Below are positions 2 through 31,554 of a DNA stretch of 32,000 nucleotides, piece by piece. Position 1 is the stretch's first letter. The number at the start of each line of letters is the position of its first letter. Source of the DNA: Rhodobacter capsulatus SB 1003. Lineage in GTDB: Bacteria; Pseudomonadota; Alphaproteobacteria; Rhodobacterales; Rhodobacteraceae. The notes below the pieces were generated by a model that was given only the letters and a program-made list of their open reading frames with translations, was not told where the DNA came from and did not search any database. The translations under genes and the position numbers were made by a program. The stretch is taken from the NCBI RefSeq assembly GCF_000021865.1, contig NC_014034.1:1770001-1802000 (forward strand), in the 5' to 3' direction.

Positions 2-820
2 AAGACCGTGCATTACGTCGCCCCCTCGGTCTGGGCCTGGCGTCCCGGGCGCGCGGCGAAGATGGCCGAGGTGATCGACCATGTTCTGGCGCTGCTGCCC
101 TTCGAGCCGCCCTACATGACCGCCGCGGGGATGAGCTGCGATTTCGTCGGCCATCCGGTCGTGGCCGAGCCGCGGGCGACCGAGGCCGAGGCGACCGCGC
201 TGCGCCAGACCCTGATGATCGGTCCCGATCAGCCGGTGCTGCTGTGCCTGCCCGGGTCGCGCCGCGGCGAGGTGAAGCGGCTGATGCCGCGCTTCGCCGC
301 GACCGTTGCTGCGCTGCGGCAGGACGTGCCGGGGCTGCGCGTGCTCATCCCCACCGTGCGCGGGGTGGCGGCAGAGGTGCGCAAGATGGCTTGCCGCTGG
401 GACGAGGTGCCGAATGTGATTTCGGACGCGGCCGAGAAGCGCGCGGCCTTTGCCACGGCCAATCTGGCGCTGGCGGCCTCGGGCACGGTCAGTCTGGAAC
501 TGGCGGCGAACCGGGTGCCGATGGTGATCGGCTATCGGATGAACTGGCTGACGTGGCATATCACGAAGCGCGCGATGCTGATCGACACGGTGACGCTGGT
601 CAATCTGGTGTCTGAGACCCGGGCGGTGCCGGAATTCCTCGGCCGGCCCTGTCGGCCGAAACCGATGGCGCGGGCGCTGCAGGATCTGTTGCGGGATCCG
701 CAACGCCGCGCGGCGCAGGTTTCCGCCATGGAAACGACGATGCAGCGGCTGGGCGAGGGCGGCGCGGCCCCGGGGCTGCGTGCGGCGCAGTCGGTTCTGG
801 CCTTCCTTCAAAGGGGCTGA
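2..820 (+). CDS. lpxB: lipid-A-disaccharide synthase, C-terminal ~272 aa (5' end outside window)
   Basis: ORF 8..820 is open to the window edge; the 'M' at 8 is an internal GTG. Translation (HYVAPSVWAWRPGRA, LLCLPGSRRGEV, ASGTVSLELA, TLVNLV) matches the LpxB family from memory. TGA at 818-820. Confidence 0.85.
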   Translation, partial: KTVHYVAPSVWAWRPGRAAKMAEVIDHVLALLPFEPPYMTAAGMSCDFVGHPVVAEPRATEAEATALRQTLMIGPDQPVLLCLPGSRRGEVKRLMPRFAATVAALRQDVPGLRVLIPTVRGVAAEVRKMACRWDEVPNVISDAAEKRAAFATANLALAASGTVSLELAANRVPMVIGYRMNWLTWHITKRAMLIDTVTLVNLVSETRAVPEFLGRPCRPKPMARALQDLLRDPQRRAAQVSAMETTMQRLGEGGAAPGLRAAQSVLAFLQRG

Positions 821-1545
821 AGCACGACCCCTTCGGCCTGCAATTTGCTGCGCAGCAATTTCGCCATTTCAAGGGCTTGCGGGGTGTCGCCATGCAGGCA
901 GACGGTGTCGATCCGGGCCGGGATGCGATGGCCGCTGGCGGAAAGGATCGCGCCCGCGCGCAGCATCGCCAGAATCCGCCCCGCGGCCGCTTCGGCGTCA
1001 TGCAGAACGGCACCCGGAAGCGAGCGATCGACCAGCGTCGCATCGTCATTGTAAGCGCGGTCGGCGAAAATCTCGCCCGCCCAATCGGCCTGCATCGCGC
1101 GGGCGGCGGCCTCCTGCGCCGTCGCCGAAAGCACCATCAGCTTCAGATCCGGCACGACGGCAAGCGCCGCGCCATAGCAGATGCGGGCCAGATCCGCATC
1201 TTCGGAAGTGATGTTGGACAGCGCCCCGTGCAGCTTGAAATGGCGCAATTTCAACCCCTTGGCCTGCGCCACGGCGGCCATCGCGCCGGTCTGATACGCG
1301 ATCAGATCGACCAGTTCGGGTTTCGACAGCACCATCCTGGTGCGGCCGAAATTTGCCCGGTCATCAAAGCCCGGATGCACGCCGAGGCCGACGCCCTTTT
1401 CGGCCGCCAGTGCCATCACCCGCGCCATTTCCAGCGGCCCGCCCGCATGCAGCCCGCAGCAGATATTGGCCGAGGTCACGACGTCGAGCAGCGCCGCATC
1501 CGCGCCCGCGCCTTCGCCCATGTCGGAATTGAGATCAAGTTTCAT
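808..1545 (-). CDS. pxpA: 5-oxoprolinase subunit A (LamB/YcsF family)
   Basis: Within ORF 808..1662. The family-typical N-terminus MKLDLNSDMGEG starts at ATG 1545. That ATG overlaps the pxpC stop (ATGA, 1542-1545). Confidence 0.85.
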   Translation of the reverse strand: MKLDLNSDMGEGAGADAALLDVVTSANICCGLHAGGPLEMARVMALAAEKGVGLGVHPGFDDRANFGRTRMVLSKPELVDLIAYQTGAMAAVAQAKGLKLRHFKLHGALSNITSEDADLARICYGAALAVVPDLKLMVLSATAQEAAARAMQADWAGEIFADRAYNDDATLVDRSLPGAVLHDAEAAAGRILAMLRAGAILSASGHRIPARIDTVCLHGDTPQALEMAKLLRSKLQAEGVVLQPL

Positions 1546-2555
1546 GCGTCTTCCTCGTCGCCGCGGATCATGCCCGAGATCAGTTGATAGGCCAAAAGAT
1601 CGGGAATGTCGCGCGGATCGCGGGTCAGCGGGCAGAGCAGTGGGCGGATCTGCGCCAGCCAAAGCGCCTCGGGCGGCGAGACGGTTTCGGCCGCGTCGAG
1701 CGGAATTTCGACCAGCCTCAGCGCGGTTCCGGGGCGGGCCTGCGCGGCGCGGGACAGGTCAAGCGGGATCACCGTTCCAAGGCGGGGATACCCACCGATG
1801 GTCTGGCAATCGGCCAGAAGCACAACCGCTTGTCCCGTCCCGGTCATCTGGAGGTCCCCCGGGCCGATGAAATCCGACAGCAACCCCGAGGTTTCCGTGG
1901 CAAAGGGGCCGCCGTCCTGAAGCAGCGCCAGCCCCTGACGGCTGGCCGGACCGGCGCGAAACCGGGTGGCAAAGGCGCGGGCCCGCGTTTCGGGCGCGAA
2001 AAGCGCGGTCTGCGGCCCGGCGATCACCCGCAGCGTGCCGCCGGTGAAACGGTCGTCGGGGGGCAGGCGCTGTGCCGCCGCCGCGGGGGCCGGATCGGGG
2101 CCGAAGGGCAGGCGCAGCCCCGCGTGAACCACCGTGCCCAGACCCGCCGCGGCAAGGGTGGCGCGGGCGCCCAGCGTTTCGGGCGTCAAAAGCCCCCCCG
2201 CGAGCGAAAGATAGCCGTAAACACCGCTCTCGCCGGGGCGCAGATCCAGCACCTCGCCGGGCGCGAGCGGATGAGAGGCATTCCAGATCAAGGGCTTGCC
2301 GTCGCGGCTGGCCTGCATCGGCGCACCGGTGAGGGCGATCCGGGTGGGGGCGGTGACGCGAAACCGCCCGCCCGTCAGCGGCAGTTCCAGCGCGGCTTGC
2401 GGCCGGGATTGCCCCAGAAGCGCCGCGGCTTCCCAGAGCGCGCGGCGGTCTGCGGCGCCCCCGGTCGAAAGACCGAATCCCGTGTAGCCCGGCCGCCCCA
2501 GATCCTGCACCGAAATTCCGGGACCGGCAGAAATGACTTCGATAAATCCTGTCAT
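1542..2555 (-). CDS. pxpC: 5-oxoprolinase subunit C (allophanate hydrolase subunit 2 / KipA-like)
   Basis: Within ORF 1542..3005. MTGFIEVISAGPGISVQDLGRPGY starts at ATG 2555 and overlaps the pxpB stop by 4 nt. The upstream 150 codons of the ORF overlap pxpB and look like a high-GC artefact. Confidence 0.85.
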   Translation of the reverse strand: MTGFIEVISAGPGISVQDLGRPGYTGFGLSTGGAADRRALWEAAALLGQSRPQAALELPLTGGRFRVTAPTRIALTGAPMQASRDGKPLIWNASHPLAPGEVLDLRPGESGVYGYLSLAGGLLTPETLGARATLAAAGLGTVVHAGLRLPFGPDPAPAAAAQRLPPDDRFTGGTLRVIAGPQTALFAPETRARAFATRFRAGPASRQGLALLQDGGPFATETSGLLSDFIGPGDLQMTGTGQAVVLLADCQTIGGYPRLGTVIPLDLSRAAQARPGTALRLVEIPLDAAETVSPPEALWLAQIRPLLCPLTRDPRDIPDLLAYQLISGMIRGDEEDA

Positions 2556-3271
2556 TTCGGAAAACCCAGAATTGCACCCCCAAAAGGATCGCCCTTTTCG
2601 ATCAGCGCGGCGATGTTTTCGGCGCTTGTCGGGGTGAAGCGCAGGAAATCGCCCGGGCGCAGCCGGAACGGCTCGGCGGCATCGGCGGCAAAGGGGCGAA
2701 AGGCGGTGCGGCCCAACGCCCGCCAGCCGGTGGGCGAGGGCGCGGCGAAGAGCACGATCTGGCGCAGCGCGGTGGTGATCGTGCCCGCCTCGACCCGCGG
2801 TGTCAGCGTGGGCAGGCGGGGCATCTGCCAATGCGCGGGCAGGGTGCCGAGATAGGGCTGCCCGGGCGCGAAGCCCAGCGCCAGAACCCGCAAGTCCGTT
2901 GCACAAAGCTCTGAAATCAAAGCGCTTTCGCTGCGTCCCGCCAGGGCGGCGGCTTCGGTCAGATCGGCCCCCCAGCTCCCGCCGAAACAGGCGGGGACGG
3001 TCCAATGCCGTGCGGCGGCGGGCTCGGGGGCTGGCGCCGTCAGGCGCTGGCGCAACGCGGCCGCGAACTGCATGCGGCCGGTTGTCAGCCGGTCAAAGCG
3101 CAGCAGCACCGAGCCAAGCCCTGGCGCCACCTCGGTCTGCCCGGGCAGCGGATCGGCCGCCAGCGCCACGGCAAGCCGCTGCGCGGCGCTGTTCGCCTCC
3201 TCCGACCAGGCGGTGGCGAAGCGCACCAGCACGGCCTCAAGGCCAAGCGGCAGGATCTCGGGGCCCGTCAT
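2552..3271 (-). CDS. pxpB: 5-oxoprolinase subunit B (allophanate hydrolase subunit 1 / KipI-like)
   Basis: ORF 2552..3271, 239 aa. It sits immediately upstream of pxpC, as is typical for pxpBC. ATG 3271 overlaps the stop of the upstream transglutaminase gene (ATGA). Confidence 0.8.
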   Translation of the reverse strand: MTGPEILPLGLEAVLVRFATAWSEEANSAAQRLAVALAADPLPGQTEVAPGLGSVLLRFDRLTTGRMQFAAALRQRLTAPAPEPAAARHWTVPACFGGSWGADLTEAAALAGRSESALISELCATDLRVLALGFAPGQPYLGTLPAHWQMPRLPTLTPRVEAGTITTALRQIVLFAAPSPTGWRALGRTAFRPFAADAAEPFRLRPGDFLRFTPTSAENIAALIEKGDPFGGAILGFPK

Positions 3272-4152
3272 TCGGTGTCAAGCGGCAGCACGTCGACCGC
3301 CTGCCGCGTTTCGGCCCGCCCGGCCGAGCGCAGCGCCCCGCGGATCGGCGCCACATCATCGTAATCGCGCCCGACGGCGACGGTGACGAAATCCACCCCG
3401 GCGGCCTGATCATTCGTCGGATCGAACTCGATCCAGCCCATTTCGCGCCCGACCCAGGCCCGCACCCAGGCGTGCATCGCATCCGCGCCTTCCAGCCGCG
3501 GCTGCCCGGGCGGCGGAAAAGTGCGCAGGAAACCAGAGACATAGCCCGCGGGAATGCCGATGCCGCGCAGGCCGGCGATCATCACATGGGTGAAATCCTG
3601 ACAGACGCCGCGACCACGGGCAAAGGCCTCGCGCGGGGGGGTGTCGACCGTCGTCGCCTCGGCGTCGAAGGTCATGTGCTTGTGCAGCGCATGGCCCAGC
3701 CTGGCCACGGCCGTGGCGGCGGTCATCGTGCGCGTGGTCACGGCGCGGGCAAAGGCGGTGATCTCGGGGCAGGGCACGACGCGCGGCGAGGCGCCAAGGA
3801 AGTGATGCGGCGCGGTGGGCGCCAGTGTCGTCTCGGCGGCGATTTCGGCGCCAAGTTTCGGCAGCGGCGGCGAGAGGTCAAGCGGAACGGGCTGCGCCAG
3901 CCGTTCGATCCTTGCGGACAGTTCAAAGCGCACATCGGCGACGGGGCGGTGCCAGACGACGGATGTCACAGCATTGCCGAAGAAATCCAGCCCGTCGTGG
4001 CGTTCATCCGGGGCCGGGTCCAGCGTCAGCCGCCGCGCCAGCACCCGCTGCGCGCCCGGAATGTCGGGCGGCAGCAACCGCGCCAGATTGCGCAGATGAT
4101 CCGAGGGCGCGGCGTAATCATAGTCGATGGCCAGTTTGATCTCGTAGCGCAT
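3268..4152 (-). CDS. transglutaminase-family protein (Bact_transglu_N + transglutaminase core), 294 aa
   Basis: ORF 3268..4152. Cys-His-Asp signature is readable: GRGVCQDFTHVM ... DAMHAWVRAW ... IEFDPTND. It starts 3 nt after the stop of the ATP-grasp/alpha-E gene. Confidence 0.8.
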   Translation of the reverse strand: MRYEIKLAIDYDYAAPSDHLRNLARLLPPDIPGAQRVLARRLTLDPAPDERHDGLDFFGNAVTSVVWHRPVADVRFELSARIERLAQPVPLDLSPPLPKLGAEIAAETTLAPTAPHHFLGASPRVVPCPEITAFARAVTTRTMTAATAVARLGHALHKHMTFDAEATTVDTPPREAFARGRGVCQDFTHVMIAGLRGIGIPAGYVSGFLRTFPPPGQPRLEGADAMHAWVRAWVGREMGWIEFDPTNDQAAGVDFVTVAVGRDYDDVAPIRGALRSAGRAETRQAVDVLPLDTE

Positions 4153-4155
4153 GAC

Positions 4156-6603
4156 CTACCCCAGATAGCTTTGCGTGACGAGGTTCGACATCTGCGCCAC
4201 CTCGGACCGCAGGGTGATCAGCCGGTGCGTGGTGATCTCCTCGGGCGCGGCGACGGAAAGCAGGCTTTCGACCGGCACGATGGCGCGTGACAGCGCCGCC
4301 AGCCGCCCGTTCTCGCGCGCATGCGGCAGATCCGCGGCGAGCGCCCGCATCCGCGCGATCTGAAACAGGATCGAGCGCGGGTTGTCGCCATCCAGCGCCA
4401 GCAGGTCCACCACCGTCTCGCGCGAGCGTTCCATGCGGTAGCGGCGCTGATGGGTGATCACGCTGTCGGCGACCTCGATCGCGATATCGAGACAGCCCGA
4501 GGGCGCCTTGGCATCGGCAAAAGTGGCCAGAACCGCCGCCAGCGCATCGGTGCGTTCCAAGGCGCGGCCAAGGGACAGGAAGGTCCAGCCGGAAAAACGA
4601 TACATGTTTTCATGCACAAGGCCGGAAAAGCCGGTGATCTTGCGCAACAGCACCGACATTGCCCGCGCGGCATCATCGCCCGGTTTCGCGGTCTGGCTCA
4701 TCGACCGCGCGGTGCGGGCAAGGTCGGCCAGCGCCGCCCAGCCATCGGTGGAAAAGCGGTCGCGGACCTTGGCGGCGCAGCCGCGGGCGGCCTCGATCCG
4801 GTCGATCAGCGCGCCCGGCACCGGCTGGGTCGTGGTGATGCCGTAACCGCCAAGGAAGCTGCGCAACAGCCGCAGCCGGGCGTCTTCGGCATTGTCGGTG
4901 GCGGCCAGACGCAGGTGATAGGCGCGGATGAGCCGGATCGCGTCTTCGGTGCGTTCGACATAGCGGCCGAGCCAGTAGAGATTGTCGGCCGAACGTGCGG
5001 GCAGGATGCCGGGGCTGGCCCGGCGCACGCCCTTTTCCGGCCGCGGCAACAGGCTTTCCTGCCGCACCGGCCGGTCGGCCACGACCCAGACATCGGCCAC
5101 GGCGCCGCCGCGCTGCATCGCCAGCGCCGTGGTGTCGCCGGACCGGCCGATGCGGGCATAGCCGCCCTTCATGAAGGTCCAGTTGCCATTGGCGTCGCGG
5201 GCGGCAAAGACCCGCACCGTCATCGGCCGCGGCTCGATCCGGTTCGCGCCGGTGCCGCTGTCGACCCAGGCGGGGGTGGTGGACAGCGTCACCGCCTCCT
5301 GGCCCACCAGCATCTGCCCCTCGGCCTCCAGCCAATCCGAGATCGAGGCCCGGGCCGAGCCGCGCAAGGTGCCGCCCAGCGCCGTCGCCGCGCCCAGATC
5401 AAAGGGCAGATCACAGGCATAGGCCGAGCCGATCATCATCCGGTCGGCATTGTCGCGCACGAAGGCGCGTTCGGTCGCCCCGCCACACCACCAGGTGGCA
5501 ATGTTGGGCATCTTCAACGGCTTGCCGCGCAAGACCTCGCAGATGCGCGGCAGAAAGGCCATCATCGCCCGCATCTCCATCACGCCCGAGCCCAGCGCAT
5601 TCACCAGCGCCAGATTGCCCGCCCGGATCGCCTCGACCAGACCCGGGGTGCCGATCTGGCTTGTGGCATCAAGCTCCACCGGATCGGCAAAGGCCGCATC
5701 GATGCGCCGCCACAGCACGCCCAAGGGCTGCGGCCCCTCGATCGTGCGGACCATCGCCTGACCGTCCTGCACCAGCAGATCCTCGCCTTCAAGCAGCATC
5801 AGACCCAGATAGCGGGCGATATAGGTGTGTTCGTAATAGGTGTCGTTCGAGGGGCCGGGCGTCAGGATCGCCGCCGCCCGTTCGCGCCCGCCCGGCGCCT
5901 GCGCCAGCCGCTCCATCGCGGCGCGGAAGGTGCCGAAGAACCCGGCCAGCCGGTGGATATGGGCGCGCGGGAAGCGTTCGGGAAAGATGCGGCCGGTGGC
6001 CATGCGGTTTTCCAGCGCAAATCCCGCGCCCGAGGGCGCCTGCGTGCGATCCCCCAGCACGAACCAGCGCCCATCCGGGGCGCGGCCGATTTCAAAGGCC
6101 AGCACATGCAGGAAATGGCCGCCGCGCGGGGTGATGCCCACCATCGGGCGCAGCCATTGCCGCGAGCCCGCGATCAGTTCCGCGGGCAGATGGCCCTCGG
6201 TGACCAGCCGCCCGGGGCCGTAAAGATCGGCCATCACCGCTTCCAGCAGGTCCGCCCGCTGCGTCAGCCCGGCGCAGATCGTCTCCCATTCCGTTTCATG
6301 CAGGATCACCGGAATATGCGAGAGCGGCCATTCCCGTTCCGCCAAGGGGTCGTTCGAATATTGCCGGAAGAAGACGCCGGCATCGCGCAGATATTGGTCG
6401 GCGCGTTCGAACCGCGCGGTGATCTCGGCCGGGCTCAGCCGGGCGAAGCGGTCGACAAAGCGGCGCCAGACCGGGCGCATCTGGCCTGCCGCATCGAACA
6501 ATTCATCCGCCACCCCGGGCGAGAGCCGGTAATTGGCGAAAAGGTCATTCGCGGGATGGGGCGGGGGCGTCTGGGTCATGGGGCACCGGGGCTTGAGCCT
6601 CAC
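4156..6603 (-). CDS. circularly permuted type-2 ATP-grasp protein fused to an alpha-E domain, ~807-815 aa
   Basis: ORF 4156..6603. The N-terminal half resembles COG2308-type CP ATP-grasp proteins ([21 protein letters not shown]). The C-terminal ~310 aa resemble alpha-E/COG2307 ([24 protein letters not shown]). The start is either GTG 6603, overlapping the upstream stop as GTGA, or ATG 6579. Confidence 0.75.
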
Positions 6604-9600
6604 TCAAGCCCGATGGGACGGCGCAGGTCAAGGGTCAGCGGAAATTCCGGATGCGGCGTCTCGGGGGCGGGGGCATAGGCGCCGGGGCTGTGGCCCATCG
6701 GCTCGAACCGGGCCAGACGCCGCGCCTCGGCCTCGTAGGCATTGACCGGGAAAGTGTCGTAATTGCGCCCGCCCGGATGGGCGACGTGCCAGGTGCAGCC
6801 CGCCAAAGCCCGGCCCGACCAGCGGTCATAGATGTCAAAGACCAAGGGCGTGTTCACCGGCAGCGTCGGATGCAGCGCGGCGGGCGGTTGCCAGGCCTTG
6901 AAGCGCACCCCCGCGACCGAGGTCCCCGCCGTGCCCGTGCGCGTCATCGGCACCGGACGGCGGTTGCACATCACCGTGTAGCGGTCCTGATGCAGGTTTG
7001 TCAGCTTCACCTGCAGCCGCTCGACCGAGCTGTCGGTATAGCGCACCGTGCCGCCGATGGCGCCGGTCTCGCCCAACACATGCCAGGGCTCCAGCGCCTG
7101 ACGCAGTTCCAGATGCACCCCCTCGGCCTCGATCTGGCCGCAGAAGGGGAAGCGGAATTCCGATTGCGCCTCGAACCAGACCGGGTCGAAATCGAACCCA
7201 TGCGCGCGCAGATCAGCCAGCAGCGACAGCAGATCTTCCCACAGATAATGCGGCAGCATGAAGCGGTCATGCAGCACCGTGCCCCAGCGCACGGGCCGCC
7301 CGGTGACGGGCGCGGCCCAGGCCCGCGCGATCAGGGCGCGGATCAGCAGTTGCTGCGCCAAGGACATGCGCGGATGGGGCGGCATCTCGAAGCCGCGGAA
7401 CTCGACCAGACCCAGACGGCCGGTGGGGCCATCGGGGGAATAAAGCTTGTCGATGCAGATCTCGGCGCGATGGGTGTTGCCGGTGACGTCGATCAGCATG
7501 TTGCGCAGCAGCCGGTCCACCAGCCAGGGCGGCGGCAGGTTGCCGCCATGGACCGGATCGCCGATCTGCGCGAGCGCGATTTCAAGTTCGTAAAGCGTGT
7601 CATGCCGCGCCTCGTCGATCCGCGGCGCCTGAGAGGTCGGCCCGATGAAGAGACCCGAGAAGAGGTAAGACAGGCAGGGATGGCGCTGCCAGATCAGGAT
7701 CAGCGATTTCAGAAGATCGGGGCGGCGCAGGAACGGGCTGTCATTCGGCGTCGCGCCCCCGACGACGACATGGTTGCCGCCGCCGGTGCCGGTGTGGCGC
7801 CCGTCGATCATGAACTTGTCGGCGCCAAGACGCGAGAGCCGCGCCTCGGCATAGATCGCCTCGGTGGTGGCGACGCACTCCTCCCAGCTGTGCGCGGGGT
7901 GAATGTTCACCTCGATCACGCCCGGATCGGGGGCGACGCGGATCACGTTCAGCCGCGGGTCATGGGGCGGCGCATAACCCTCGATATGGATGGGCAGGTT
8001 CAGCTCGGCCGCCGTCGCCTCGGCGCTGGCGATCAGGTCGAGGTAGTCTTCGAGCGTGTCGCAGGGCGGCATGAAGAGGCACAACCGCCCGTCGCGCGGC
8101 TCGATGGCGATGGCCGTGCGCACCGCCCCCGTGGCCGGGTCGGTGCCCTGCGCCGAAAGCGCCTGCCGCGCGGTCGGATCGCTCTCGGTCCGGGTGGATT
8201 TCTGCTGATGCGCCGGGCTGACGGCGGGCAGGAAGGCCGCCTGTTCACGGGCTTCCTCGGCGGCCAGCCGGTCGATCTCGGCCTGGATCTTTGCCCGCCG
8301 TTCCGCAATGGCGGCGCTGAAATCCGGCAGCGGCCCGACTTCGACGGTCGGATCGGCCGGGTAGGAATAGGGATAGGAGTCGGCGGGCACATGCGGCAGG
8401 GCGCCGAGGGGCAGGCGGAACCCCACCGGGCTGTCGCCGGGCACCAGGAACAGATGCCCGCGCCGCGGCTTCCAGAGTTCCGACCGCCAGCGCCGCCCCC
8501 CGGCCCGGCCTTGCCAGGGCTGGATCGGCAGCACGAAGCCCGAGGGTTCGGTCAGGCCGCGGTTGAAGACGCGGGCGTACCGGGCGCGGTCCTCGGGGTT
8601 TTTCAGCTTCGGGTTTTCCGGGCTGACATTCGGCGGTAAGTTCGCTTCCTTCAGGATCCATTCGCCGGGGTCTTCATAGGCGGGCTGGGCGAAGACCGGA
8701 TCAAGCCCCAGATGCGCCGCAAAGGCCTCCATGAAGCGCCCGGCCTCGGCGGGACCGACCGGCGCGGTGGCGTTTTCGCGCGCGATCAGATCGGGGTTTT
8801 GCCAGACCGGCACGCCGTCGTGCCGCCAATAAAGCGAAAAGGTCCAGCGCGGCAGGCTCTCGCCCGGATACCACTTGCCCTGCCCGTAATGCAGAAAGCC
8901 CCCCGGGGCGAAGCGGGCCTGCAAGCGGCGGATCAGATCATCGGCCAGCGCGCGTTTTTGCGGCCCGACGGCCTCGGTGTTCCACTCCGGCGTCTCGAAA
9001 TCATCGACCGAAACAAAGGTCGGCTCGCCCCCCATGGTCAGGCGCACATCGCCCGCCCGCAAGGCGTCATCGACCCGCTGGCCCAGCGCATTCAGCCGGT
9101 CCCAGGCTTCGTCGGAAAAGGGCTTGGTGATGCGCGGATGTTCCGCCACCCGCTTCACCTGCATGTCAAAGGCAAAGCGCGTCTCGGGCGTGCCCGCGGC
9201 GGTGAAGCCCCCGGCAATCGGCGCGGCATTGCGGTAATGCGGCGTCGCCGCCAGCGGGATATGGCTTTCCCCCGCCAAAAGCCCCGAGGTCGGGTCAAGC
9301 CCCACCCAGCCCGCGCCGGGCAGGAAGACCTCGACCCAGGCGTGCAGATCGGTGAAATCGACCTCGGTCCCCGAAGGGCCATCGAGCGCCTTCACATCGG
9401 GGGCAAGCTGGATCAGATAGCCCGAGACGAAGCGGGCGGCGAAGCCCAGATGCCGCAACACCTGCACCAGCAGCCAGGAACTGTCGCGGCACGAGCCCGA
9501 GGCCAGCGTCAGCGTCTCGTCGGGCGTCTGAACCCCGGGTTCCATCCGGATCGTGTAGCGGATTTCCCGCGCGATCCGGGCGTTCAGCGCCACCAGAAAA

Positions 9601-10028
9601 TCGACGGTGCGGGTCTGGGTGAAATCCACCGTGCCGATGAACCGCGCCAGCTGCGGCCCCTCGGGGTCCGGCGTGCGATAGATCGACAGATCGTCGCGCA
9701 GATCCTCGGGATAGTCAAAGGGCCAGGTCTCGGCGGTTTCTTCCAGAAAGAAATCGAACGGGTTGTAGACCGTCATGTCGGCGACCAGATCGACCTCGAT
9801 CTTCAGCTCGGTCACCGGCTCGGGAAAGACGAAACGGGCCAGCCAGTTGCCATAGGGGTCCTGCTGGTGGTTCACGAAATGCCCGCCGGGGCTGACCTTG
9901 AGCGAATGCGAAATCACTCGCGTGCGCGAATGCGGCGCCGGACGCAGCCGGATGATCTGCGGCCCCAAAGTCACCGGGCGGTCGTAGACATAATGCGTCA
10001 GGTGATGGATGGATGCGTGGATCGCCAT
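6600..10028 (-). CDS. large transglutaminase-like / DUF2126-type protein, 1142 aa
   Basis: Within ORF 6600..10205. [18 protein letters not shown] starts at ATG 10028 behind a GGGGGAAG Shine-Dalgarno-like run. Transglutaminase triad motifs are present: [24 protein letters not shown]. The long C-terminal region carries the glycine-rich HTGTGGGNH motif (7770-7796). Confidence 0.75.
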
Positions 10029-10203
10029 GGTCTTCCCCCCGTGTTGCCCCGACTGTAGGAAGCCGGGCGGCGGATGCCATGGGAAACCGGCCCCGGCCGC
10101 GGGGCGGGCGGCGTTTTCCGGGCAACTGCCCGAAAATTGGGCGCCGCGCATCTTGCACCAAGGTCGAATAGGCAGCCTGTCCCGGCTCAAGCACAGTTGC
10201 GGC

Positions 10204-29214: not shown

Positions 29215-30340
29215 CGATCCAGCCGCCGCCGAAGATCCGGCTGCCTTCGGTTTCGTAAAAGACGCAGGCCTGACCCGGGCTGACGCCTTCTTCGGGCTCG
29301 ATCAGCTCGACCTCGGCCGTGGTGGCCGAGAGCGGCCGCAAGATCGCCGGACGCGGCGCCCGGGTGGAGCGGATCCGCACCGAGACCTCCCGTTCCGGGT
29401 GGCTTTCGAACGGCTCGTCGCCCAGCCAGTTGATTTCGGCCACCCGCAAAAGCCGCGTGGCAAGCGCCTCTTTCGGGCCGACGATCACCCGGCGCGTGTC
29501 GGGATCAAGCTTCACCACGTAAAGCGGATGATCGCCGAGGCCCCCGATGCCCAGGCCGCGGCGCTGCCCGATCGTGTAGTGGATCACGCCCTTGTGATGG
29601 CCCAGCACTTTGCCCGCAAGATCGACGATCTCGCCCGGATCGGCGGCGCCGGGGCGCAGCTTTCGATGACGCTCGCATAATTCCGTCGGCACGAAGCAGA
29701 TATCCTGGCTGTCGGGCTTGTCGGCGACGATCAGACCGAATCTGGCGGCCAGTTTGCGGGTCTCCGCCTTCGAGGGCAGGTGGCCCAGCGGGAATCGCAG
29801 GAAGGCAAGCTGCTCGGGCGTGGTCGAGAACAGGAAATAGCTCTGGTCGCGCATCGGATCGGCGGCCGAATGCAGCTCGGGCCCGTGGGCGCCCAGCTTG
29901 CGCTGGATGTAGTGGCCGGTCGCCATGCAATCGGCGTCGAGATCGCGGGCGGTTTCCAGCAGATCCTTGAACTTCACCCGTTCATTGCAGCGGATGCAGG
30001 GTACGGGCGTCGCCCCGGCGAGATAGGCATCGGCGAATTCCTCGATCACGGCTTCGCGGAAAGTGTTTTCGTAATCAAGGACATAGTGGGGGAAATTCAT
30101 CGCTTCCGCGACGCGGCGGGCATCGTGGATGTCCTGGCCCGCGCAGCAGGCGCCCTTTTTCGCCAGGGCCGCGCCATGGTCATAAAGCTGCAAGGTCACG
30201 CCGATGACATCGTAACCTTCCTCCTTCAGCATGGCGGCCACCACCGAGCTGTCGACGCCGCCCGACATGGCGACGACCACGCGGGTGTCGGCGGGCGCTT
30301 TCGGCAGGCCCAGCGAATTCAGGGGGAGATCTTTCGGCAT
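29204..30340 (-). CDS. mnmA: tRNA 2-thiouridine(34) synthase
   Basis: ORF 29204..30340. PP-loop [11 protein letters not shown], then DSQDICFVP and [15 protein letters not shown] local frame anomaly at 29660-29685 is described in findings. Confidence 0.9.
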
Positions 30341-30405
30341 CGCAACAGTCCTTTAACCAGACCCGCAGGAATATAGGAAAATGCGAACTACTCTCAACCC
30401 TTGGC

Positions 30406-30420
30406 TAAACCCAGCGTTAA
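30406..30420 (+). promoter_or_regulatory. candidate CtrA box TAAA-N7-TTAA upstream of sciP
   Basis: TAAACCCAGCGTTAA has one mismatch to TTAA-N7-TTAA. It ends 46 nt upstream of ATG 30467. Confidence 0.35.
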
Positions 30421-30466
30421 GGCCCTCGGCGCATTCTGCCCCCATGAAGACGAGGGGGGTGAGCCC

Positions 30467-30745
30467 ATGTATCTGAAAAAAGTGGATGGTCCGCGCGCAG
30501 TTACGCTGCCCGACGGGACGATTCTGACCCGGGCCGATCTGCCGCCGAAAGAAACGCGTCGTTGGGTGGCGTCGCGCAAGGCGATCATCGTGCATGCGGT
30601 GACGCATGGTCTGATCGGACGCTCGGAAGTACTTGAACGTTACGGCTTATCGGAGGAAGAATTCGATATCTGGGCGGAAGCGGTCAAGAAACACGGCATC
30701 GCAGGGCTGAAAGTGACGGCGATCCAGAAATATCGACAACTTTAA
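30467..30745 (+). CDS. sciP: SciP-like small CtrA inhibitory protein (DUF1153), 92 aa
   Basis: Within ORF 30401..30745. ATG 30467 follows GAGGGGGGTGAG. Translation is MYLKKVDGPRAVTLPDGTILTRADLPPKETRRWV. It lies immediately upstream of ctrA. Confidence 0.8.
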   Translation: MYLKKVDGPRAVTLPDGTILTRADLPPKETRRWVASRKAIIVHAVTHGLIGRSEVLERYGLSEEEFDIWAEAVKKHGIAGLKVTAIQKYRQL

Positions 30746-30783
30746 GTTGCAAATGAACGGAATCCTGCGACAGTAACTACGTG

Positions 30784-30791
30784 TTAACCAT
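30784..30791 (+). promoter_or_regulatory. candidate CtrA half-site TTAACCAT upstream of ctrA
   Basis: Exact match to the 8-mer CtrA motif described in Caulobacter. It ends 49 nt upstream of ATG 30841. Confidence 0.35.
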
Positions 30792-30840
30792 TTGGTGACA
30801 AGGTCGAACGTGATCGAGGGATTAATGCGGAGAACCCAGG

Positions 30841-31554
30841 ATGCGGATTTTGTTGGTGGAGGACGACCCGACGACCTCTCGCAGCATCGAGCTGATGCTG
30901 ACCCATGCCAACCTCAACGTCTACTGCACCGACCTCGGTGAAGAAGGCATCGACCTTGCCAAGCTTTACGATTACGACCTGATCCTTCTCGATCTGAACC
31001 TTCCCGACATGAACGGGCTCGAGGTGCTGCGTCAGTTGCGTCTGGCTCGTGTCGACACGCCGATTCTGATCCTGACCGGTGCCGATGACACCGAGAACAA
31101 GATCAAGGGCTTCGGCTTTGGCGCCGATGATTACATGACGAAGCCCTTCCATCGCGAAGAGCTGGTGGCCCGGATCCATGCGATCATCCGCCGCTCGAAG
31201 GGGCATTCGCAGTCGATCATCCGCACCGGCAAGATCTCGGTCAACCTCGACGCCAAGACGGTGGAAGTGGGCGGCAAGCCGGTGCATCTGACCGGCAAGG
31301 AATACCAGATGCTGGAGCTGCTCAGCCTGCGCAAGGGCACGACGCTGACCAAGGAGATGTTCCTCAACCATCTTTACGGCGGCATGGACGAGCCCGAGCT
31401 GAAGATCATCGACGTCTTCATCTGCAAGCTGCGCAAGAAGCTGGCCGAAGTCACCGGCGGAGAGAATTACATCGAGACCGTCTGGGGCCGGGGCTATGTG
31501 CTGCGGGACCCTGATCAGGGCGACCTTGACCGCCGCATGGTCGTGGGCGCCTGA
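30841..31554 (+). CDS. ctrA: cell-cycle / GTA master response regulator CtrA (OmpR family)
   Basis: ORF 30841..31554. [20 protein letters not shown] ... DLNLPDMNG ... winged-helix TVWGRGYVL. Confidence 0.95.

What the first reader, a model, noticed from the sequence alone, without database searches (positions are those of the whole stretch)
808..10028. Uncharacterised transglutaminase / ATP-grasp / alpha-E triad is translationally chained to the PxpBCA 5-oxoprolinase
Seen in sequence:
- Six same-strand genes have almost no spacing: GTGA overlap at 6600-6603 (if the GTG start is used), a 3-nt gap at 4153-4155, and ATGA overlaps at 3268-3271, 2552-2555 and 1542-1545.
- Both transglutaminase-like proteins keep readable Cys/His/Asp motifs.
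- The 1142-aa protein has a long non-transglutaminase C-terminal region with a glycine-rich HTGTGGGNH loop at 7770-7796.

Established knowledge: the COG4196-like / COG2308+COG2307 / COG1305 neighbourhood was predicted from comparative genomics (Aravind group, 2009) to make or modify a peptide or metabolite, but has no demonstrated product. PxpABC is the prokaryotic ATP-dependent 5-oxoprolinase (Niehaus et al. 2017).

Inference: gamma-glutamyl-type ligation or cleavage chemistry generates 5-oxoproline. Hard-wiring the triad to its salvage enzyme therefore suggests a glutamyl-containing substrate or product.
Basis: partly seen in the sequence, partly recalled or inferred. Interest (0 to 1): 0.7.

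Follow-up and report, generated by a model that had tools for sequence, protein, structure and literature searches.

The report
Two unrelated operons fused in Rhodobacter
In Rhodobacter capsulatus a widespread but still uncharacterised three-gene enzyme set sits directly in front of the housekeeping 5-oxoprolinase genes, but this pairing occurs only in a few close relatives, so it says little about what the three genes make.

Summary
One correction: the ATP-grasp gene most likely starts at the ATG at 6579, a 20-nt gap, not at the GTG that gives a GTGA overlap.

The window is Rhodobacter capsulatus. The pairing of the triad (transglutaminase+DUF2126, circularly permuted ATP-grasp+Alpha-E, small transglutaminase) with pxpBCA is lineage-restricted:
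- It occurs in R. capsulatus, R. maris and R. lacus.
- It is absent from 57 informative triad loci among 80 other species, and from about 24 informative metagenome loci.
- Sister genera keep either module alone at the same place beside lpxB. R. xanthinilyticus, Sinirhodobacter ferrireducens and Paenirhodobacter populi have the triad only. Sedimentimonas and Pseudothioclava have pxpBCA only.

The chain is best read as two separable operons joined next to the lpx cluster, probably co-transcribed in Rhodobacter.

The gamma-glutamyl idea keeps some independent, weak support: the predicted DUF2126 fold matches only glutamine synthetase and YbdK-type ligases. The triad's product remains unknown. Verdict: an ordinary, lineage-specific juxtaposition of moderate to low interest.

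The parts
6600..10028 (-). Large protein (1142 aa): N-terminal transglutaminase-like Cys-His-Asp domain fused to DUF2126, a putative glutamine-synthetase-fold amidoligase. The glycine-rich loop HTGTGGGNH lies at 7770-7796.
   Evidence: Pfam. AlphaFold2 models with pLDDT 86 and 88. Foldseek: N-terminus matches 3isr at E 4e-13; the DUF2126 region matches only YbdK, glutamine synthetase and GmaS, best E 1.4e-3. Loop core [TS]GGGxH is conserved in 34-38 of 41 diverse homologues.
4156..6579 (-). Circularly permuted ATP-grasp fused to Alpha-E (807 aa from the ATG at 6579; an alternative GTG at 6603 would give 815 aa and a GTGA overlap).
   Evidence: Pfam CP_ATPgrasp_2 3e-128 and Alpha-E 1e-52. PDB 3n6x at 1e-60. 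Start site from public gene calls and the comparison with relatives.
3268..4152 (-). Small transglutaminase-like protein (294 aa) with Cys-His-Asp retained.
   Evidence: Pfam. Alignment to 3isr and 6g49 covering GVCxDF, HAW and FDPT.
2552..3271 (-). PxpB-like protein (CT_C_D, 239 aa). Its ATG overlaps the stop of the small transglutaminase gene (ATGA), and there is no Shine-Dalgarno-like motif upstream.
   Evidence: Pfam 9e-47. NCBIfam PxpB 87.7 bits, below the 145.6 cut-off. PDB matches include E. coli YbgJ, 8e-21. Upstream sequence.
1542..2555 (-). PxpC-like protein (CT_A_B, 337 aa), ATGA overlap with pxpB.
   Evidence: Pfam 6e-59. NCBIfam PxpC 145.9 bits, below the 500 cut-off. Best PDB match is E. 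coli YbgK, 4e-28.
808..1545 (-). PxpA (LamB_YcsF, 245 aa), ATGA overlap with pxpC and a GAGGAAG ribosome-binding motif upstream.
   Evidence: Pfam 5e-79. NCBIfam PxpA subfamily NF003814 278 bits, above the 226 cut-off. E. coli YbgL 4e-49. 100% identical to R. capsulatus LamB/YcsF protein P0271.
10029..10203 (.). Intergenic region of about 175 nt between the large gene and a divergent NosR/ApbE-like gene. This is the presumed promoter region of the chain; no promoter was mapped.
   Evidence: Gene calls on identical contigs L088 and L089. Pfam of the divergent ORF. The sigma-70 consensus scan found nothing.
8..820 (+). 3' part of lpxB, convergent with pxpA and overlapping its end by 13 nt. This is the conserved anchor beside which the triad, pxpBCA or both sit in related genera.
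   Evidence: Pfam LpxB 1e-59. Synteny in L003, L004, L085, L086, L088-L093.

Best explanation
The six-gene chain joins two independent, separately viable modules, and the join is specific to one lineage.

**Module 1: the triad.**
- It is a widely distributed three-gene operon: transglutaminase+DUF2126, circularly permuted ATP-grasp+Alpha-E, and a small transglutaminase.
- Inferred mechanism: two ATP-dependent carboxylate-amine ligases (one glutamine-synthetase fold, one ATP-grasp) build an amide-linked peptide or conjugate. Two Cys-His-Asp transglutaminase-like domains then trim or transfer it.
- The product is unknown.

**Module 2: pxpBCA.** This is the housekeeping 5-oxoprolinase operon, which reopens 5-oxoproline to glutamate. 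5-Oxoproline forms spontaneously from glutamate, glutamine and gamma-glutamyl phosphate.

**How they came together.**
- In the Rhodobacter group both modules lie beside the lpxB-lpxI-lpxA-fabZ-ompH-bamA cluster.
- In Rhodobacter sensu stricto they abut with a stop/start overlap. pxpBCA is therefore probably transcribed from the triad promoter, and pxpB translated by termination-reinitiation.

**What is shown and what is inferred.** Gene content, junctions and the distribution of the arrangement are shown. Co-transcription, translational coupling and the triad's chemistry are inferred. The adjacency itself carries little functional information.
For: **The organism and the arrangement.**
- The window is R. 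capsulatus, and identical contigs have the same order.
- The same six-gene order plus convergent lpxB occurs in R. maris and R. lacus.

**Each module alone at the same site.**
- Triad directly beside lpxB, without pxp: R. xanthinilyticus, Sinirhodobacter ferrireducens, Paenirhodobacter populi.
- pxpBCA directly beside lpxB, without the triad: Sedimentimonas flavescens, Sinirhodobacter sp. HNIBRBA609, Pseudothioclava arenosa.
- Sedimentimonas (pxp only) and R. xanthinilyticus (triad only) share the same upstream flank: DUF2059, TPM_phosphatase, AsnC, LysE, TetR, PPK2.
- Elsewhere, pxpBCA stands alone in Lentibacter.
- Elsewhere, the triad stands alone in Pseudooceanicola, Gemmobacter, Ralstonia and Azospirillum.

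**Surveys.**
- In 80 species-representative loci, 61 carry the full triad and 57 of these have at least 3 kb downstream. None contains any pxp homologue at E<=1.
- In 34 metagenome loci found with the small transglutaminase, none has pxp.
- The same survey does detect a recurrent neighbour, a Peptidase_Mx gene in 11 of 80 loci, so it has the power to find real associations.

**Sequence features.**
- GC3 is homogeneous across the six genes, 0.78-0.85.
- There is no terminator-like or promoter-like site at any junction.
- The stop/start overlap at the triad/pxpB junction is present in all three Rhodobacter species.

**Background.** 5-Oxoproline forms spontaneously in all cells (PMC13274462).
Against: - The stop/start overlap between the small transglutaminase gene and pxpB is kept in three species whose PxpA proteins are only 73-74% identical. 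Co-expression has therefore been maintained for a substantial time.
- pxpB has no Shine-Dalgarno-like motif of its own.
- The DUF2126 fold matches only enzymes that form gamma-glutamyl phosphate, and gamma-glutamyl phosphate is a known source of 5-oxoproline. A local functional benefit is therefore plausible.
- The 80 surveyed loci are mostly Proteobacteria. They do not cover Actinobacteria or Cyanobacteria.
- I could not check whether species with only one module at this site carry the other module elsewhere in the genome.
- Co-transcription has not been measured.
Confidence: 0.75

Rival explanations
1. Functional coupling, at least in Rhodobacter. The triad's ligase and transamidase cycle releases 5-oxoproline, for example by cyclisation of gamma-glutamyl phosphate or of a gamma-glutamyl amide. 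pxpBCA was recruited into the operon as its dedicated salvage enzyme.
For: - The stop/start overlap at the junction is conserved in three Rhodobacter species, and pxpB has no ribosome-binding motif of its own.
- No terminator or promoter signal lies at the junction.
- The DUF2126 fold matches only glutamine synthetase, YbdK and GmaS, all gamma-glutamyl-phosphate-forming ligases.
- Gamma-glutamyl phosphate cyclises to 5-oxoproline (PMC13274462).
Against: - Adjacency is 0 of 57 in other species and 0 of about 24 in metagenome loci.
- Three close relatives keep the triad at the same site without pxp, and others keep pxpBCA there without the triad.
- pxpABC is far more widely distributed than the triad. 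E. coli YbgJKL are the closest or near-closest solved homologues.
- The neighbour that does recur with the triad is a metallopeptidase, not pxp.
Confidence: 0.17
2. The three downstream genes are not a 5-oxoprolinase here. They are a diverged lactamase or carboxyltransferase-like enzyme acting on a different cyclic amide made by the triad.
For: PxpB and PxpC score below the NCBIfam equivalog cut-offs: 87.7 against 145.6, and 145.9 against 500.
Against: - PxpA passes a PxpA subfamily cut-off.
- E. coli YbgJ, YbgK and YbgL are among the best PDB sequence matches.
- Identity declines smoothly to triad-free orthologues at the same lpxB site: 74% R. maris, 71% Sedimentimonas, 66% Pseudothioclava, 63% Lentibacter. 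There is no jump that would suggest a change of function.
Confidence: 0.05

Closest known systems
Circularly permuted ATP-grasp / Alpha-E / transglutaminase system with a COG4196 (DUF2126) partner, predicted by Iyer, Abhiman, Burroughs and Aravind 2009 (as cited in PMC5666114 and PMC6376114)
   Same: The domain set and gene order match: transglutaminase+DUF2126, CP_ATPgrasp+Alpha-E, small transglutaminase. This order is kept in 61 of 80 surveyed species.
   Different: In this window the operon is extended by pxpBCA, which I did not find in any other surveyed lineage. The ATP-grasp and Alpha-E parts are fused into one protein. No Anbu peptidase gene is present in the window.
Anbu operon (ATP-grasp, Alpha-E, transglutaminase, Anbu) of Pseudomonas, Yersinia and others (PMC5666114, PMC6376114)
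   Same: It shares the ATP-grasp, Alpha-E and transglutaminase families. Its function is likewise unproven: only ATP hydrolysis by the ATP-grasp protein has been shown.
   Different: This locus has no Anbu gene, has an additional DUF2126 amidoligase protein, and has ATP-grasp and Alpha-E fused. Split-gene operons of the Anbu type appear as separate loci in the metagenome sample.
PxpABC prokaryotic 5-oxoprolinase (E. coli YbgJKL, B. subtilis and C. glutamicum PxpABC; Niehaus et al. 2017 as cited in PMC13274462)
   Same: It has three adjacent genes of the LamB_YcsF, CT_C_D and CT_A_B families in the order B-C-A. The E. coli subunits are top or near-top PDB matches.
   Different: PxpB and PxpC fall below the NCBIfam equivalog cut-offs. 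There is no transporter or PxpR-type regulator next to them. The genes have no upstream intergenic region of their own and begin inside the stop codon of an unrelated gene.
Glutamine synthetase / gamma-glutamylcysteine-ligase-type carboxylate-amine ligases (YbdK 1r8g and 1tt4, GlnA, GmaS)
   Same: All of the top 50 Foldseek matches of the DUF2126 model belong to this fold. A conserved glycine-rich [TS]GGGxH loop resembles the glutamine synthetase ATP-site motif; that resemblance is recalled from memory and was not tested.
   Different: The matches are weak (best E 1.4e-3, TM on target at most 0.39) and cover about 300 of 860 residues. No sequence-level match to these families was found.

Membership tests
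PxpABC 5-oxoprolinase | Three clustered genes encoding LamB_YcsF (PxpA), CT_C_D (PxpB) and CT_A_B (PxpC) | tested here: met
   Pfam hits at 5e-79, 9e-47 and 6e-59 for three consecutive overlapping genes.
PxpABC 5-oxoprolinase | Scores above the curated NCBIfam cut-offs for PxpA, PxpB and PxpC | tested here: inconclusive
   PxpA passes subfamily NF003814 (278 against 226). PxpB (87.7 against 145.6) and PxpC (145.9 against 500) fall below their equivalog cut-offs.
PxpABC 5-oxoprolinase | ATP-dependent conversion of 5-oxoproline to glutamate | not testable with these tools
   This needs an enzyme assay or complementation of a pxp mutant.
CP-ATP-grasp / Alpha-E / transglutaminase system (Iyer et al. 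2009) | Co-directional neighbourhood of CP_ATPgrasp, Alpha-E and a Bact_transglu_N+Transglut_core protein | tested here: met
   The order is conserved in 61 of 80 species loci.
CP-ATP-grasp / Alpha-E / transglutaminase system (Iyer et al. 2009) | Partner protein with a transglutaminase domain fused to DUF2126 (COG4196) | tested here: met
   DUF2126 at 1324 bits, covering residues 282-1136.
Anbu operon | A proteasome-beta-like Anbu gene in the operon | tested here: not met
   None of the six genes or their flanking genes has such a domain. The rest of the genome was not examined.
Transglutaminase-like cysteine peptidase fold | Cys-His-Asp triad in the papain-like core | tested here: met
   The large protein has C180, H229 and D245. 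The small protein's GVCQDF, HAW and FDPT align to 3isr and 6g49. Foldseek to 3isr gives E 3.7e-13 and TM 0.76. Note that C180 is replaced in 5 of 30 diverse homologues.
Glutamine synthetase / GCS2 carboxylate-amine ligase superfamily (for DUF2126) | Glutamine-synthetase-type catalytic fold | tested here: inconclusive
   The model has pLDDT 87.9. All of the top 50 Foldseek hits are YbdK, glutamine synthetase or GmaS, with probability up to 1.0, but E is at best 1.4e-3 and TM on target at most 0.39. There is no sequence-profile hit.
Glutamine synthetase / GCS2 carboxylate-amine ligase superfamily (for DUF2126) | Conserved metal- and ATP-binding Glu, His and Arg residues in equivalent positions | not tested
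   Invariant and near-invariant E, H, R and D residues exist, but I made no residue-level superposition on a glutamine synthetase structure.

The most novel reading that the evidence does not exclude
In Rhodobacter sensu stricto the triad runs a private gamma-glutamyl cycle. The glutamine-synthetase-fold DUF2126 ligase and the ATP-grasp ligase make a gamma-glutamyl-linked product. A transglutaminase-like domain releases 5-oxoproline from it. The co-translated PxpBCA returns that 5-oxoproline to glutamate. If so, the genetically tractable R. capsulatus locus would be the first handle on the product of a system left unexplained since 2009.
Probability: 0.12. Interest if true: 0.6.

Novelty: new member of a known kind. 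Interest (0 to 1): 0.3.

Why it matters
The triad is very widespread, and its large protein is strongly conserved. It is 75-87% identical across Rhodobacteraceae genera and 55-59% identical between phyla. It still has no known product.

A genuine, conserved link to 5-oxoprolinase would have pointed to glutamyl chemistry and given a direct metabolomic test. The comparison shows the link is a local accident of gene order, so it should not be used to annotate the triad.

Three things are useful to take forward:
- Nature provides matched species with the triad only, pxp only, or both at one site.
- A metallopeptidase is the neighbour that recurs with the triad.
- The DUF2126 fold points to glutamine-synthetase-type ligase chemistry.

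Tried and rejected
- **Literature searches.** Searches for DUF2126, for pxpA with transglutaminase, for COG numbers and for Mycobacterium homologues found no functional characterisation of the triad.
  - A 2026 preprint tested Rv2567 and Rv2411c only for GABA-trehalose synthesis, with a negative result.
  - The Rv2569c 'serine protease' paper concerns a protein that I recalled to be a small-transglutaminase homologue. I did not verify this, so I did not use it.
  - A Caulobacter NtrC paper turned out to concern a different transglutaminase homologue.
  - Iyer 2009 and Niehaus 2017 are not held in the library.
- **Sequence searches for DUF2126 relatives.** A profile search of the large-protein alignment against PDB sequences found no glutamine-synthetase-like match. 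Neither did a permissive Pfam scan of the two DUF2126 halves. Only structure comparison found such matches.
- **Recurrent-neighbour clustering.** All-against-all clustering of neighbour ORFs mostly returned promiscuous families (ABC, RND, LysR, histidine kinase, MCP, GGDEF). One apparently novel 311-aa cluster was the antisense shadow of the Peptidase_Mx gene.
- **Search for remnants.** tblastn for remnants of the missing module in single-module species gave only noise.
- **Plasmid records.** They carried no usable annotation, so I analysed them with my own searches.
- **Stop-codon hairpin.** The hairpin over the large gene's stop codon is absent in R. maris and R. lacus, so I do not count it as part of the system.
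- **Rfam.** It found nothing in the window.

Full report
**1. The observation**

The window has about 69% G+C. Six consecutive minus-strand ORFs run from 10028 to 808.

- GTGA at 6600-6603.
- A 3-nt gap at 4153-4155.
- ATGA overlaps at 3268-3271, 2552-2555 and 1542-1545.
- Bases 7770-7796 encode HTGTGGGNH.

Pfam confirms every proposed domain:
- Protein 1 (1142 aa): Bact_transglu_N, Transglut_core and DUF2126.
- Protein 2: CP_ATPgrasp_1/2 and Alpha-E.
- Protein 3 (294 aa): Bact_transglu_N and Transglut_core.
- Proteins 4-6: CT_C_D, CT_A_B and LamB_YcsF.

NCBIfam names the last three PxpB, PxpC and PxpA. Only PxpA exceeds a curated cut-off. The solved E. coli subunits YbgJ, YbgK and YbgL are top or near-top sequence matches. 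Both transglutaminase-like domains keep Cys, His and Asp aligned with 3isr and TgpA.

One correction concerns the start of the ATP-grasp gene:
- Gene calls on identical public contigs start it at an ATG 20 nt after the upstream stop.
- In R. maris the equivalent GTG is out of frame with the conserved ATG.
- The likely start is therefore 6579, and the first junction is a short gap, not an overlap.

Four-base overlaps also join the neighbouring lpx genes. The packing is therefore normal operon architecture for this genome.

**2. Where the window comes from**

The PxpA protein is 100% identical to a Rhodobacter capsulatus protein seen on 132 contigs. Contigs carrying it show the same gene order as the window:
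- A divergent NosR/ApbE-like gene upstream.
- The six genes.
- A convergent lpxB-lpxI-lpxA-fabZ-ompH-bamA cluster, which matches the window's own flanks.

**3. Is the pairing with pxpBCA conserved?**

*From the triad side.* I aligned the large protein with diverse representatives at 36-53% identity. I used that alignment to fetch 80 loci from species-representative genomes, with 10-kb flanks. The loci span Alpha-, Beta- and Gammaproteobacteria, Acidobacteriota, Verrucomicrobiota, Bacteroidota and Nitrospirales.
- 61 loci have the full triad in the same order, and 57 of these have at least 3 kb downstream.
- Searching all ORFs with the window's PxpA, PxpB and PxpC found no hit in any of the 80, even at E<=1.
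- A metagenome scan with the small transglutaminase gave 34 more loci, about 24 with usable downstream sequence. None has pxp.
- Ralstonia and Azospirillum replicons also lack pxp next to the triad.
- The method can detect real associations. A Zn-ribbon/Peptidase_Mx gene lies next to the triad in 11 of the 80 loci, and also in Pseudooceanicola and Ralstonia.

*Among close relatives, gene calls with Pfam labels.*

| Arrangement | Species |
|---|---|
| Triad, pxpBCA, then lpxB | R. capsulatus, R. maris, R. lacus |
| Triad then lpxB, no pxp | R. xanthinilyticus, Sinirhodobacter ferrireducens, Paenirhodobacter populi |
| pxpBCA then lpxB, no triad | Sedimentimonas flavescens, Sinirhodobacter sp. 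HNIBRBA609 (nearly the same sequence), Pseudothioclava arenosa |
| Triad in another context | Pseudooceanicola batsensis, Gemmobacter caeruleus |
| pxpBCA in another context | Lentibacter |

Sedimentimonas (pxp only) and R. xanthinilyticus (triad only) share the upstream flank as well: DUF2059, TPM_phosphatase, AsnC, LysE, TetR, PPK2. The simplest history is an ancestral site that held both modules, followed by reciprocal losses. Independent insertion is also possible. No remnants of the missing module were detectable. Either way, each module is kept without the other at the same place.

**4. What the chain probably does in R. capsulatus**

- The consensus scan found no terminator-like or sigma-70-like site at any junction.
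- pxpB and pxpC have no Shine-Dalgarno-like motif. The large gene, the small transglutaminase gene and pxpA do.
- The stop/start overlap at the transglutaminase/pxpB junction is kept in R. maris and R. lacus as TGATG.
- Base composition is uniform across the six genes.

I infer that pxpBCA is co-transcribed with the triad and that pxpB is translated by reinitiation. None of this has been measured.

**5. What the triad is**

A full-length AlphaFold2 model (pLDDT 86) matches the 3isr transglutaminase-like cysteine protease at its N-terminus, with E 3.7e-13.

A separate model of the DUF2126 region (pLDDT 87.9) matches only carboxylate-amine ligases of the glutamine synthetase fold:
- The matches are YbdK, glutamine synthetases and gamma-glutamylmethylamide synthetase, and they fill all of the top 50.
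- The scores are weak: best E 1.4e-3, TM on target at most 0.39.
- This agrees with Pfam's label 'putative amidoligase'.

From memory this resembles the glutamine synthetase ATP-site motif. That is a lead, not a test.

The ATP-grasp half matches the structural-genomics entry 3n6x at 1e-60.

The system therefore combines two ATP-dependent ligases, two transglutaminase-like domains and Alpha-E. A metallopeptidase is its most frequent extra neighbour. This fits the 2009 prediction of a peptide-making or peptide-modifying system.

The Anbu papers say that prediction is still unconfirmed. I found no later paper that identifies a product.

**6. Judgement**

The glutamyl idea is not excluded:
- The ligase fold points to gamma-glutamyl-phosphate-type chemistry.
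- Gamma-glutamyl phosphate does cyclise to 5-oxoproline (PMC13274462).
- That rests on weak structural similarity, not on the gene order.

5-Oxoproline forms spontaneously in every cell, and PxpABC is a general repair and catabolic enzyme. That is consistent with its appearing in many unrelated gene contexts.

I rate this as an ordinary juxtaposition of two known kinds of module. It has modest practical value, because R. capsulatus and its relatives offer natural triad-only, pxp-only and both-module comparisons.

Noticed in passing
window 6589-6611 (minus strand): A perfect 10-bp stem with a 3-nt loop (GGGCTTGAGT-GAG-GCTCAAGCCC, -16.2 kcal/mol) spans the stop codon of the large gene, just before the ATP-grasp start. 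R. maris and R. lacus lack the second arm, so it is specific to R. capsulatus.
   Followed up: partly
L001 8885-9847; L029, L031, L042, L046, L053, L057, L058, L065, L080, L082, L095 next to the large gene: A Zn_ribbon_DZR_6 + Peptidase_Mx (putative zinc metallopeptidase) gene lies directly beside the triad, often divergently upstream. It occurs in 11 of 80 surveyed species and also in Pseudooceanicola and Ralstonia. It is absent from the window. It is the only specific recurrent neighbour I found.
   Followed up: partly
alignment A1, column of window large-protein residue C180: The catalytic Cys of the N-terminal transglutaminase domain is replaced (H, P, D, A, A) in 5 of 30 diverse large proteins, while His229 and Asp245 stay conserved. 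In some lineages that domain may be non-catalytic.
   Followed up: no
representatives P0145, P0182, P0185, P0195, P0204 and others: About 750-aa homologues cover only the DUF2126 part and lack the transglutaminase domain. The amidoligase module therefore also exists on its own.
   Followed up: no
window 6600-10028 and its homologues: The large protein is unusually conserved for a protein of unknown function. It is 75-87% identical across Rhodobacteraceae genera and 55-59% identical to Beta- and Gammaproteobacteria, Acidobacteriota, Verrucomicrobiota and Bacteroidota. PxpA is less conserved across the related Rhodobacteraceae genera I compared, at 63-74%.
   Followed up: no
window 808-820: The 3' ends of pxpA (minus strand) and lpxB (plus strand) overlap convergently by 13 nt, leaving no room for a terminator between them.
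   Followed up: no
L061, L067, L076, L079, L082 upstream of the large gene: A second, unfused CP-ATP-grasp gene, followed in two of the loci (L067, L082) by an Alpha-E-like ORF, lies next to the triad in Burkholderiales, Nitrospirales and Vicinamibacterales loci. Two related systems are thus clustered together.
   Followed up: no
L085 652-7866: In Sinirhodobacter sp. HNIBRBA609 the conserved flank upstream of pxpBCA is replaced by mobile or defence-type genes (Mrr_cat+nSTAND1, resolvase, SNIPE/T5orf172). The near-identical Sedimentimonas locus keeps the normal flank. This site is evidently prone to rearrangement.
   Followed up: no
L096 11336-13856: In Azospirillum brasilense about 2.5 kb separates the large gene from the ATP-grasp/Alpha-E gene, unlike the tight junction seen elsewhere.
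   Followed up: no
window 30001-31000: G+C drops to 0.58, against about 0.69 for the rest of the window, around an OmpR-type response-regulator gene at 30841-31554.
   Followed up: no
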